From the NCBI RefSeq assembly GCF_003334815.1, contig NZ_QOWO01000012.1: 64,000 bases of DNA; one strand, 5' to 3'. The notes beneath the pieces are model-generated. The model did not search any database and was not told where the DNA came from. It saw only the letters and a program-made list of their open reading frames with translations. Below are positions 63,819 through 64,000 of this stretch, one piece after another. How positions within the stretch are numbered: position 1 is the stretch's first letter; each line of letters starts with the position of its first letter. Source of the DNA: Escherichia coli (GTDB lineage Bacteria > Pseudomonadota > Gammaproteobacteria > Enterobacterales > Enterobacteriaceae). Position numbers and translations under genes: made by a program.

Positions 63819-63825
63819 GCAAGAG

Positions 63826-63867
63826 TAGGCTGGATAAGACGCGCCAGCGTCGCATCCGGCATTTTTT
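63826..63867. repeat. REP element followed by a T-run after mobB
   Basis: gtaggctggataagacgcgccagcgtcgcatccggca followed by ttttttt. Confidence 0.8.
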
Positions 63868-63879
63868 TCTGCGCCAATG

Positions 63880-63904
63880 CAAAAAGGCCATCCGTCAGGA
63901 TGGC
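63880..63904 (-). terminator. Distal intrinsic terminator of an rRNA operon 3' trailer (operon body lies beyond the window end)
   Basis: Minus strand of 63880..64000 reads ...ccgccgggagcggatttgaacgttgcgaagcaacggcccggagggtggcgggcaggacgcccgccataaactgccaggcatcaaattaagcagaaggccatcctgacggatggcctttttgc, which I recognise as the sequence class of the rrn T1-T2 spacer and T2 hairpin (ggccatcctgacggatggcc + T5). Confidence 0.65.
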
Positions 63905-64000
63905 CTTCTGCTTAATTTGATGCCTGGCAGTTTATGGCGGGCGTCCTGCCCGCCACCCTCCGGGCCGTTGCTTCGCAACGTTCAAATCCGCTCCCGGCGG

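What the first reader, a model, noticed from the sequence alone, without database searches (positions are those of the whole stretch)
63819..64000. mobB converges on the 3' trailer and terminator of an rRNA operon at the window edge
After the mobB stop there is a REP plus T-run. On the opposite strand lies a hairpin ggccatcctgacggatggcc with a T5 run and about 95 nt that I recognise as the rrn T1-T2 spacer sequence class, which includes a 5S-3'-end-like fragment aactgccaggcat. The 5S gene itself would lie just beyond position 64000. Convergent transcription from a very highly expressed rRNA operon into mobAB is the reason two terminators are stacked here.
Basis: partly seen in the sequence, partly recalled or inferred. 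Interest (0 to 1): 0.3.

Follow-up and report, generated by a model that had tools for sequence, protein, structure and literature searches.

The report
End of E. coli rrnA operon
This is the well-known tail end of the E. coli rrnA ribosomal RNA operon (second terminator T2 plus part of the small-RNA gene rrA) meeting the end of the oppositely oriented mobB gene; it is real, correctly recognised and already described.

Summary
Observation confirmed. Window 63300-64000 is 100% identical to E. coli K-12 MG1655. mobB ends at 63818. It is followed by a REP element (63825-63860, REP292) and a T7 run. On the minus strand lie the rrnA T2 hairpin with U5 (63881-63905) and the 3' 89 nt of the T1-T2 interval. 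That interval includes an 18-nt copy of the 5S 3' end (63915-63932).

Two corrections apply:
- The "spacer" is a described gene, rrA. It is a tRNA-linked-repeat small RNA made by read-through of T1, cut by RNase E, and bound by Hfq and CsrA in vitro (PMC8144298).
- Convergence with mobAB is not why T1 and T2 are stacked. The same T1-rrA-T2 unit ends rrnB, where murB is co-directional, and rrnD. In 13 related loci the next gene is convergent in 8 and co-directional in 5. The T2 + A-run + REP module also follows rrnG.

The face-to-face pair of REP+T7 (for mobB) and T2 (for rrn) does fit convergent units. Nothing here is new and interest is low.

The parts
63291..63818 (+). mobB coding sequence (175 aa); stop TAA at 63816-63818; overlaps the end of mobA (62725-63309)
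   Evidence: ORF list; NCBIfam NF008021 342.6 bits; RefSeq annotation of the identical K-12 sequence
63825..63860 (.). Single REP element (REP292 of K-12). On the + strand (mobB 3' UTR) it forms a hairpin directly followed by U7.
   Evidence: 35/36 match to a REP pattern, with 3 more copies in the window and 0 expected. Weak naRNA4 (REP-derived) Rfam hit, 31.7 bits. + strand fold -24.8 kcal/mol, z = -3.4. Named REP292, convergent mobB/rrfA.
63862..63868 (+). T7 run after the REP hairpin. Together they look like the intrinsic terminator or 3'-end stabiliser of mobAB (inferred).
   Evidence: Sequence. The run is conserved after T2 in rrnG and in Pseudocitrobacter and Escherichia sp. loci.
63881..63905 (-). 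rrnA terminator T2: hairpin GGCCATCC-TGAC-GGATGGCC (63886-63905) followed by U5 (63881-63885). On the + strand the same hairpin is preceded by A5 and followed by UUCUGCUUAAUUU.
   Evidence: Fold -22.8 kcal/mol, z = -5.8. Identical to rrnB T2. 98.8% of cells paired, with 4 pairs changed on both sides, in 17 sequences. rrnB T2 terminates about 100% of transcripts (Orosz 1991, as cited in PMC8144298).
63912..64000 (-). 3' 89 nt of rrA, the T1-T2 interval. It is a tRNA-linked-repeat (TLR) small-RNA gene. The 173-nt RrA form corresponds to 64084..63912, so its 5' half lies outside the window.
   Evidence: Identity to rrnA, rrnB and rrnD. Transcript ends mapped for RrB 3 nt after each 18-nt repeat (PMC8144298). 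Coordinates computed.
63915..63932 (-). 18-nt exact copy of the 5S 3' end plus trailer (AACTGCCAGGCATCAAAT).
   Evidence: The other copy is at the equivalent of 64083-64100, 150 bp away, as described in PMC8144298.
63936..63954 (-). rrA hairpin GGCGGGC-AGGAC-GCCCGCC, with GGA in the loop
   Evidence: Folds; consensus structure
63966..63980 (-). rrA hairpin CGTTGC-GAA-GCAACG. It is part of the core shared with the tyrT-linked TLRs.
63984..64000 (-). rrA hairpin AAATCCGC-CGGGA-GCGGATTT, cut by the window edge (complete to 64004)
   Evidence: Two compensatory C-G to U-A pairs occur in Enterobacter JUb54.
63528..63857 (-). Rho-binding (rut) peak on the rrn-sense strand, antisense to the 3' part of mobB. 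It is a possible back-up Rho-dependent stop for polymerases that pass T2.
   Evidence: In vitro screen peak 4040867-4041196(+), overlapping REP292, seen with and without NusG. C/G ratio is 3.0-3.9 at 63840-63721 on this strand. It is not flagged as a bicyclomycin-sensitive transcript in vivo.

Best explanation
The region is the intergenic junction between mobAB and the distal end of the E. coli rrnA operon.

Reading in the rrn sense (minus strand), the order is:
- rrfA (5S), just outside the window.
- Terminator T1, also outside the window.
- rrA, a tRNA-linked-repeat element. It ends in an 18-nt copy of the 5S 3' end.
- Terminator T2, a hairpin plus U5.
- A 25-nt spacer.
- REP292.
- The mobB stop codon.

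Proposed mechanism:
1. Most rrn transcription stops at T1.
2. The fraction that reads through transcribes rrA and stops at T2.
3. RNase E cuts 3 nt after each copy of the 18-nt repeat. This releases pre-5S RNA and a 173-nt RrA, which is trimmed to about 115 nt. RrA is short-lived and binds Hfq and CsrA in vitro.
4. From the other side, the weakly expressed mobAB transcript ends at the REP hairpin + U7. Anything that passes can end at the T2 hairpin read backwards.
5. Polymerases that escape T2 in the rrn sense enter a C-rich, untranslated antisense-mobB stretch that binds Rho in vitro.

Shown here: the identity, the layout, the conservation and the hairpins.
Taken from the literature: T1 and T2 efficiencies, RrA processing and RrA binding.
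Inferred: mobB termination at REP+U7, reverse use of T2 at this locus, and the Rho back-up.
For: - 100% identity to MG1655 over 701 nt. 5284 of 5426 complete E. coli genomes carry the same junction over at least 80% of the query.
- Annotated rrfA, rrlA and rrsA lie on the minus strand next to mobB. 5S is confirmed by Rfam at 90.5 bits.
- The trailer alignment shows the T1-rrA-T2 unit shared by rrnA, rrnB and rrnD, and T2 + A7 + REP shared with rrnG.
- T2 hairpin: z = -5.8 and covariation.
- T1 stem: G-C to A-U compensation in rrnD.
- rrA consensus structure.
- The TLR core is shared with the tyrT repeats, 27/32, E = 5e-5.
- PMC8144298 describes rrA, rrB and rrF as sRNAs. It gives the 18-nt repeat, the 173-nt and 115-nt forms, T1 87% and T2 100% termination, and Hfq and CsrA binding.
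- Term-seq 3' ends are listed at rrnB T1 and, on the antisense strand, at the rrnG copy of the T2 hairpin.
- A Rho-binding peak overlaps REP292, and the strand is C-rich there.
- mobB is convergent on a TLR/T2 trailer in Escherichia sp., Pseudocitrobacter, Enterobacter and Serratia.
Against: - The window stops at 64000. T1 and 5S are seen only in identical genomes, not in the window's own continuation.
- No mobB 3' end and no T2 3' end at rrnA is listed in the Term-seq tables I could search. Termination of mobAB at REP+U7 and at reverse T2 is therefore unmeasured here.
- The simple terminator scan reported neither hairpin. I take this to be a product of its stem-extension rule.
- The physiological role of RrA is weak or unclear even in the source paper: deletion and overexpression both give modest phenotypes.
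- The Rho peak is in vitro only, and rrn antitermination complexes resist Rho.
Confidence: 0.93

Rival explanations
1. One reading: the stacked terminators exist because a very strongly transcribed rRNA operon converges on mobAB. On this view they were selected to insulate mobAB from head-on transcription.
For: - The geometry is convergent.
- mobB-rrn convergence is conserved from Escherichia to Serratia.
- In Serratia both hairpins are replaced by unrelated hairpin+T-run terminators in the same face-to-face layout.
- A further Rho-binding region lies behind T2.
- About 60% of REPs lie between convergent genes.
Against: - The T1-rrA-T2 unit is the same at rrnB, where murB is co-directional.
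- 5 of 13 related loci have a co-directional next gene.
- rrnC converges on hdfR with one terminator.
- T2 + A7 + REP is duplicated at rrnG.
Confidence: 0.2
2. The interval is an evolutionary relic with no selected function. A TLR insertion or duplication, flanked by the 18-nt direct repeat, brought in T1. T2 is the ancestral terminator, as seen in the rrnG form (5S directly followed by T2). RrA is a by-product of read-through.
For: - The rrnG form equals the rrnA form minus one repeat and the intervening 150 bp.
- The T2 leader CAAATTAAGCAG is identical to the rrnC and rrnH 5S trailers.
- rrA phenotypes are modest and puzzling.
- RrA has a short half-life.
Against: - rrA sequence and structure are conserved across at least 12 genera.
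- Hairpins are kept by compensatory changes.
- CsrA binding depends on GGA motifs.
Confidence: 0.3
3. REP292 is not mainly a terminator for mobB. It acts as a 3' stabiliser against exonucleases and/or a Rho entry site, and mobAB transcription actually ends at the T2 hairpin read in reverse.
For: - REPs are reported as dual terminator/stabiliser elements, and REP292 overlaps a Rho-binding peak.
- In Enterobacter JUb54 the reverse T2 hairpin directly follows the mobB stop, with no separate hairpin.
- An antisense Term-seq 3' end sits at the rrnG T2 hairpin, beyond the REP+T7.
Against: - REP292 is followed by an uninterrupted U7, a canonical intrinsic-terminator feature.
- The rrnG REP is truncated, so read-through there need not apply to rrnA.
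- The Rho peak is on the opposite (rrn-sense) strand.
Confidence: 0.3

Closest known systems
rrnB T1-T2 terminator region (the 'rrnB T1T2' cassette of cloning vectors)
   Same: The T1 hairpin, the T1-T2 interval and T2 are the same sequence as at rrnA up to ...CCTTTTTGC. The only difference is one base in the T1 loop.
   Different: Sequence diverges downstream of T2. rrnA continues with A7 + REP292 and convergent mobB. rrnB continues with unrelated sequence and co-directional murB.
rrA/rrB/rrF small RNAs (Stenum et al. 2021, PMC8144298); tRNA-linked repeats (Rudd 1999)
   Same: The window's 63912-64000 is the 3' half of rrA itself. It has the 18-nt repeat of the upstream stable RNA's 3' end, conserved hairpins and GGA motifs.
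   Different: Nothing differs, as this is the described locus. Only the 3' 89 of 173 nt fall inside the window.
rrnG terminator region
   Same: It shares the T2-type hairpin, U5, the GCATTGGCGCAG spacer, the A7 run and the first part of the REP. The two are identical for about 50 nt, then differ by 1 mismatch and 1 indel. An antisense Term-seq 3' end shows the hairpin works in both directions there.
   Different: rrnG has no T1 and no rrA: 5S is followed directly by the T2-type hairpin. Its REP is truncated. The next large gene, kgtP, is co-directional; only the tiny yfiS converges.
RtT / tyrT-tyrV tRNA-linked repeats (Rfam RF00391; rttR)
   Same: Same architecture: hairpin GTTGC-loop-GCAAC, then GGCCCGRAGGGTG, then a second hairpin, then a copy of the upstream gene's 3' end. 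The core matches 27/32.
   Different: The Rfam RtT model scores only 19.2 bits against a gathering score of 45, E = 2.6. The repeated 3' end is that of 5S, not tRNA-Tyr. Only the rrn TLRs are predicted to bind CsrA.
REP elements between convergent genes (bidirectional terminator/stabiliser)
   Same: A single canonical REP sits in a convergent intergenic region, overlapping a Rho-binding peak.
   Different: Here one partner is an rRNA operon with its own strong intrinsic terminators. The REP carries a U7 run on the mobB side only.

Membership tests
rrn operon distal dual-terminator region (T1-T2) | Lies immediately downstream of a 5S rRNA gene on the same strand | tested here: met
   In the 100%-identical MG1655 record, 5S (RF00001, 90.5 bits) ends at the equivalent of 64088 on the minus strand. 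The window itself ends before it.
rrn operon distal dual-terminator region (T1-T2) | G+C-rich hairpin followed by a U-run (T2), conserved as a structure | tested here: met
   -22.8 kcal/mol, z = -5.8. 98.8% paired, with 4 pairs changed on both sides.
rrn operon distal dual-terminator region (T1-T2) | Sequence identity with the characterised rrnB T1-T2 region | tested here: met
   Alignment A2
rrn operon distal dual-terminator region (T1-T2) | Measured termination of rrn transcription | not testable with these tools
   For rrnB only: T1 87% and T2 100% (Orosz 1991, cited in PMC8144298). A Term-seq 3' end is listed at rrnB T1. None is listed for rrnA T1 or T2.
tRNA-linked repeats (TLR) / rrA sRNA | The last 18-19 nt are identical to the 3' end of the stable-RNA gene just upstream | tested here: met
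   AACTGCCAGGCATCAAAT at 63915-63932 and at the equivalent of 64083-64100. The two copies also match in 14 other loci, including the G-to-A variant of rrnD.
tRNA-linked repeats (TLR) / rrA sRNA | Sequence relationship to other TLRs (tyrT-linked RtT repeats) | tested here: inconclusive
   A 32-nt core is shared at 27/32, E = 5e-5 in a small search space. The Rfam RtT model is far below its gathering score, 19.2 against 45 bits, and there is no hit at E <= 1 on the full locus.
tRNA-linked repeats (TLR) / rrA sRNA | Discrete processed transcript that binds Hfq and CsrA | not testable with these tools
   Literature only
REP (repetitive extragenic palindrome) | ~35-nt imperfect palindrome matching the REP consensus, repeated in the genome, extragenic | tested here: met
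   35/36 match to the pattern, 4 copies in the window against 0 expected. It lies between the mobB stop and T2. Listed as REP292. My consensus pattern was written from memory; the family is confirmed by the other copies.
Intrinsic terminator of mobAB | Stable hairpin directly followed by a U-run just after the stop codon | tested here: met
   REP hairpin followed by U7, 7 nt after the stop. An analogous unrelated hairpin+T-run follows mobB in Serratia. Function has not been measured.
Bidirectional terminator | One hairpin flanked by an A-tract and a U-tract, giving 3' ends on both strands | tested here: inconclusive
   T2 has A5 upstream and UUCUGCUU downstream on the + strand. An antisense 3' end is seen only at the rrnG paralogue, not at rrnA.

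The most novel reading that the evidence does not exclude
The post-T1 part of rrA may be a 5S mimic.

- Its 5' UGUUUGUCGG pairs with the 18-nt repeat (CUGCCAGGCA) to form a terminal helix. The register is the same as 5S helix I, next to a duplicated RNase E site.
- The 5S-processing machinery would then excise a ~115-nt RrA in the way it excises 5S.
- The repeat would be kept identical to its own operon's 5S 3' end. The G-to-A change is present in both copies at rrnD in Escherichia and Citrobacter.

This would explain why all TLRs carry a copy of the upstream gene's 3' end. It may already be implicit in older papers I could not read (Brosius 1981; Rudd 1999).
Probability: 0.3. Interest if true: 0.3.

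Novelty: already known. Interest (0 to 1): 0.08.

Why it matters
This matters little as a discovery. The locus is in the best-studied bacterium, and each element has been described (T1/T2, rrA, REP292, mobAB).

It is also a reminder of three points:
- The widely used rrnB T1T2 cassette contains an sRNA gene.
- rrn trailers are modular. T2+REP is shared by rrnA and rrnG, and T1-rrA-T2 by rrnA, rrnB and rrnD.
- Termination at this junction is layered: T1, then T2, then REP and a Rho-binding region.

Tried and rejected
- The consensus terminator scan reported neither T2 nor REP+T7. Folding shows both clearly. I attribute the miss to the scan extending the T2 stem into the A/U flanks, and to the REP stem's internal mismatches and loop.
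- The Rfam search of the window found no 5S, because the gene lies beyond the edge. This was resolved with the identical K-12 locus.
- The weak Rfam hits to RtT (19.2 bits), STnc70 and naRNA4 are all below gathering scores. I used them only as leads.
- The paper search for mobB + rrfA returned nothing. The 1991 rrnG terminator paper that I recall from memory is not in the library. PMC10325885, on long-stem terminators, does not discuss rrn.
- The Term-seq supplement has no entry for mobB, or for T1 or T2 of rrnA. There is therefore no direct 3'-end evidence at this locus.
- I considered that the G-to-A change in both copies of the repeat at rrnD proves selection. I rejected this as proof because the change looks like a single inherited event shared by Escherichia and Citrobacter rrnD orthologues.
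- I considered the tRNA T-arm-like GTTCAAATCC on the + strand. I have no evidence that it is more than coincidence.
- I tested the association between dual terminators and convergent neighbours. In K-12 it is 2/3 for dual against 1/4 for single terminators. Across TLR-bearing loci it is 8 convergent against 5 co-directional. There is no dependence.

Full report
**What is in the sequence.** The last 1.3 kb of the window encodes mobA (62725-63309, +) and mobB (63291-63818, +). Both pass their NCBIfam equivalog models.

After the mobB stop (TAA, 63816-63818) the + strand reads as follows:
- A 36-nt REP element at 63825-63860. It matches a REP pattern 35/36. Three more copies lie in the window and none is expected by chance.
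- An uninterrupted T7 run at 63862-63868.
- A 12-nt spacer.
- An A5 run at 63881-63885.
- The inverted repeat at 63886-63905.

On the minus strand that inverted repeat is GGCCATCCTGACGGATGGCC followed by T5. As RNA it folds at -22.8 kcal/mol, z = -5.8, and 0 of 200 shuffles are as stable.

Further along the minus strand is AACTGCCAGGCAT at 63920-63932. It belongs to an 18-nt stretch, AACTGCCAGGCATCAAAT, at 63915-63932.

**Where it comes from.** Window 63300-64000 is 100% identical to E. coli K-12 MG1655. 5284 of 5426 complete E. coli genomes carry the same junction over at least 80% of that query.

In the K-12 record the neighbours are polA, yihG, yihF, dsbA, srkA, yihD, mobA and mobB. On the opposite strand follow rrfA, rrlA, alaT, ileT, rrsA and hemG. 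This is the rrnA operon.

Rfam finds the 5S gene at the equivalent of window 64090-64205 on the minus strand (90.5 bits, E = 4e-20). The mature 3' end (...CAGGCAT) corresponds to 64088. The long T1 hairpin (AAAACGAAAGGCTCAGTCGGAAGACTGGGCCTTTCGTTTTAT) corresponds to 64041-64082.

One reservation remains: this rests on identical genomes, not on the window's own continuation.

**Comparison of the seven K-12 rrn trailers.**
- rrnA, rrnB and rrnD (after its second 5S gene, rrfF) share one unit: 5S 3' end, T1, a ~125-nt interval, an 18-nt copy of the 5S 3' end, and T2.
- The two 18-nt copies are 150 bp apart.
- rrnD shows a G-C to A-U compensatory change in the T1 stem and a different T2 loop (GAAA).
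- rrnG lacks T1 and the interval. Its 5S is followed directly by the T2-type hairpin. After T2 it shares with rrnA the next ~50 nt: GCATTGGCGCAGAAAAAAATGCC(G/T)GATGCGACGCTG(G)CGCGTCTTAT. That stretch is the A7 run and most of the REP.
- The 'REP plus T-run after mobB' is therefore not private to mobB. It is part of a trailer module present at two rrn operons.
- rrnC, rrnE and rrnH end in other single terminators.

**What the 'spacer' is.** Stenum et al. 2021 (PMC8144298) report the following.
- The T1-T2 intervals of rrnA, rrnB and rrnD are the genes rrA, rrB and rrF.
- These are members of the tRNA-linked repeats (TLRs). The hallmark of the family is an 18-19-nt copy of the 3' end of the upstream stable RNA.
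- They are transcribed by read-through of T1.
- A 173-nt form starts 3 nt after the mature 5S 3' end, at the RNase E site, and ends 3 nt after the second repeat.
- A form of about 115 nt is enriched on Hfq. [quoted passage not shown]
- The paper cites T1 = 87% and T2 = 100% termination for rrnB (Orosz 1991). [quoted passage not shown]

Mapped to this locus, RrA (173 nt) is 64084..63912 on the minus strand, so the window holds its 3' 89 nt.

I checked the TLR relationship directly. rrA shares a 32-nt core (GAACGTTGC..GCAACGGCCCGRAGGGTG, 27/32, E = 5e-5) and the same hairpin-linker-hairpin-repeat layout with the tyrT-linked repeats. This explains the weak Rfam RtT hit, which at 19.2 bits is far below its gathering score of 45.

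**Related loci elsewhere.** One DNA-pattern scan of 100,044 species genomes for the rrA 3' end gave 15 loci. They come from Escherichia, Citrobacter, Enterobacter, Kluyvera, Klebsiella, Pseudocitrobacter, Pectobacterium and Serratia.

- Across 17 sequences the T2 hairpin is paired in 98.8% of cells. Four pairs changed on both sides. No shuffle reached the observed covariation score, and slid controls collapse.
- The rrA hairpins are conserved, with two compensatory pairs in one Enterobacter.
- mobB and mobA are convergent on this trailer in Escherichia sp., Pseudocitrobacter, Enterobacter JUb54 and Serratia nevei. The synteny is therefore old.
- In Serratia both the rrn-side and the mobB-side hairpins are different sequences, yet each still has its own T-run, face to face.
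- In Enterobacter JUb54 the reverse T2 hairpin directly follows the mobB stop.
- Among 13 loci with a callable next gene, 8 are convergent (four mobB, four yhdZ-like). Five are co-directional (kgtP-, murB- and metA-like and others).

**How it most likely works.**

In the rrn sense:
1. Polymerases mostly stop at T1.
2. Those that read through make rrA and stop at T2.
3. RNase E cuts after each copy of the repeat.

These steps come from the literature for rrnB and are transferred to rrnA by sequence identity.

In the mobB sense:
1. The REP hairpin (-24.8 kcal/mol, z = -3.4) with U7 begins 7 nt after the stop codon. It is a plausible intrinsic terminator or 3' stabiliser. This is inferred.
2. The T2 hairpin read backwards (A5-hairpin-UUCUGCUU) could catch the rest.

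Supporting the second point, a published Term-seq table lists an antisense 3' end 6 nt after the rrnG copy of this hairpin (2,726,060 +). The same tables list the rrnB T1 end and the mature rrfA end, but nothing for mobB or for rrnA T2.

Behind T2 in the rrn sense, a supplementary table of a 2026 preprint lists an in vitro Rho-binding peak at 4,040,867-4,041,196(+). This corresponds to window 63857..63528(-). It overlaps REP292 and is seen with and without NusG. That strand is C-rich and G-poor just there, with C/G of 3.0-3.9. This suggests a third, Rho-dependent layer, but it is in vitro evidence only.

The recognition is right. The causal sentence is not supported if it refers to T1/T2:
- The same unit ends rrnB, where murB is co-directional.
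- The unit occurs before co-directional genes in 5 of 13 loci.
- rrnC converges on hdfR with one terminator.

If the sentence refers to REP+T7 against T2, it is a fair functional reading: two convergent units, each with its own stop. The Serratia turnover supports that reading. It is weakened because the T2-A7-REP module also sits at rrnG. Hence 'partly supported'.

**Seen beyond the brief.** The 121 nt after T1 fold at -54.3 kcal/mol, z = -3.3. The fold has a terminal helix between UGUUUG.UCGG and the repeat's CUGC.CAGGCA, which resembles 5S helix I. RNAalifold keeps this helix in 12 sequences, but with one-sided changes only: U.G to U-A three times and U.G to C-G three times. At rrnD the G-to-A change in the rrfF 3' end is compensated at the rrfF 5' end (TGTCTGG). 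The same change is present in the downstream repeat, in Escherichia and in Citrobacter. These points suggest a 5S-mimic processing logic, but the evidence is thin and the idea may be old.

**Novelty and score.** Everything central is already described, in E. coli K-12 itself. Novelty: already known. Interest: 0.08.

Noticed in passing
L004 (NC_000913.3 2725200-2726300), about 770-860; compare window 63825-63905: The rrnG trailer carries the same T2-type hairpin, the GCATTGGCGCAG spacer, the A7 run and most of the REP found between rrnA T2 and mobB. About 50 nt are identical, then there is 1 mismatch and 1 indel. This suggests a shared or gene-converted T2+REP module. The small convergent ORF yfiS ends at this REP.
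   Followed up: partly
L006 (rrnD, NC_000913.3 3422800-3423900); also L011, L014 and L015: rrfF has CCAGACAT instead of CCAGGCAT at its 3' end, compensated at its 5' end (TGTCTGG). The downstream 18-nt TLR repeat carries the same G-to-A change. This holds in E. coli and in two Citrobacter loci. In all 14 loci where both copies are visible, they are identical.
   Followed up: partly
Equivalent of window 64036-63920 on the minus strand (L001 7121-7241, -): The post-T1 part of rrA folds with a terminal helix, UGUUUG.UCGG with CUGC.CAGGCA, that mimics 5S helix I. This gives a 5S-sized (~117 nt) closed RNA, close to the reported 113-115-nt RrA-short. Only one-sided covariation supports it.
   Followed up: partly
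Window 63528-63857, minus strand: A published in vitro Rho-binding peak lies antisense to the 3' part of mobB and overlaps REP292. The strand is strongly C-rich and G-poor at 63721-63840 (C/G 3.0-3.9).
   Followed up: partly
Window 60634-60711: A strong hairpin, AAAGCCCGTGAATATTCACGGGCTTTTTT, with A and T runs on both sides lies just past the dsbA stop, between dsbA and yihF. Rfam reports it only as sub-threshold 'leader'/MicC-like hits on both strands. It is probably an ordinary bidirectional intrinsic terminator.
   Followed up: no
L023 (Escherichia sp. MOD1-EC7003, contig NZ_PTRE01000138.1), 1-130: In this draft contig the rrA element next to mobB is preceded by unrelated sequence instead of T1 and 5S. 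This is either an assembly join at the rrn repeat or a real rearrangement. It was not resolved.
   Followed up: no
E. coli genome search with window 63300-64000: 30 of the 18,031 matching places are on plasmids. I presume these are rrnB-type T1T2/rrB cassettes or REP copies. They were not inspected.
   Followed up: no
L019 (Enterobacter sp. JUb54), first ~410 nt in rrn sense: This trailer has three hairpin terminators in series after 5S: a T1 variant, a second T1-like hairpin after the TLR repeat, and then a T2-type hairpin. The T2-type hairpin abuts the mobB stop directly.
   Followed up: no
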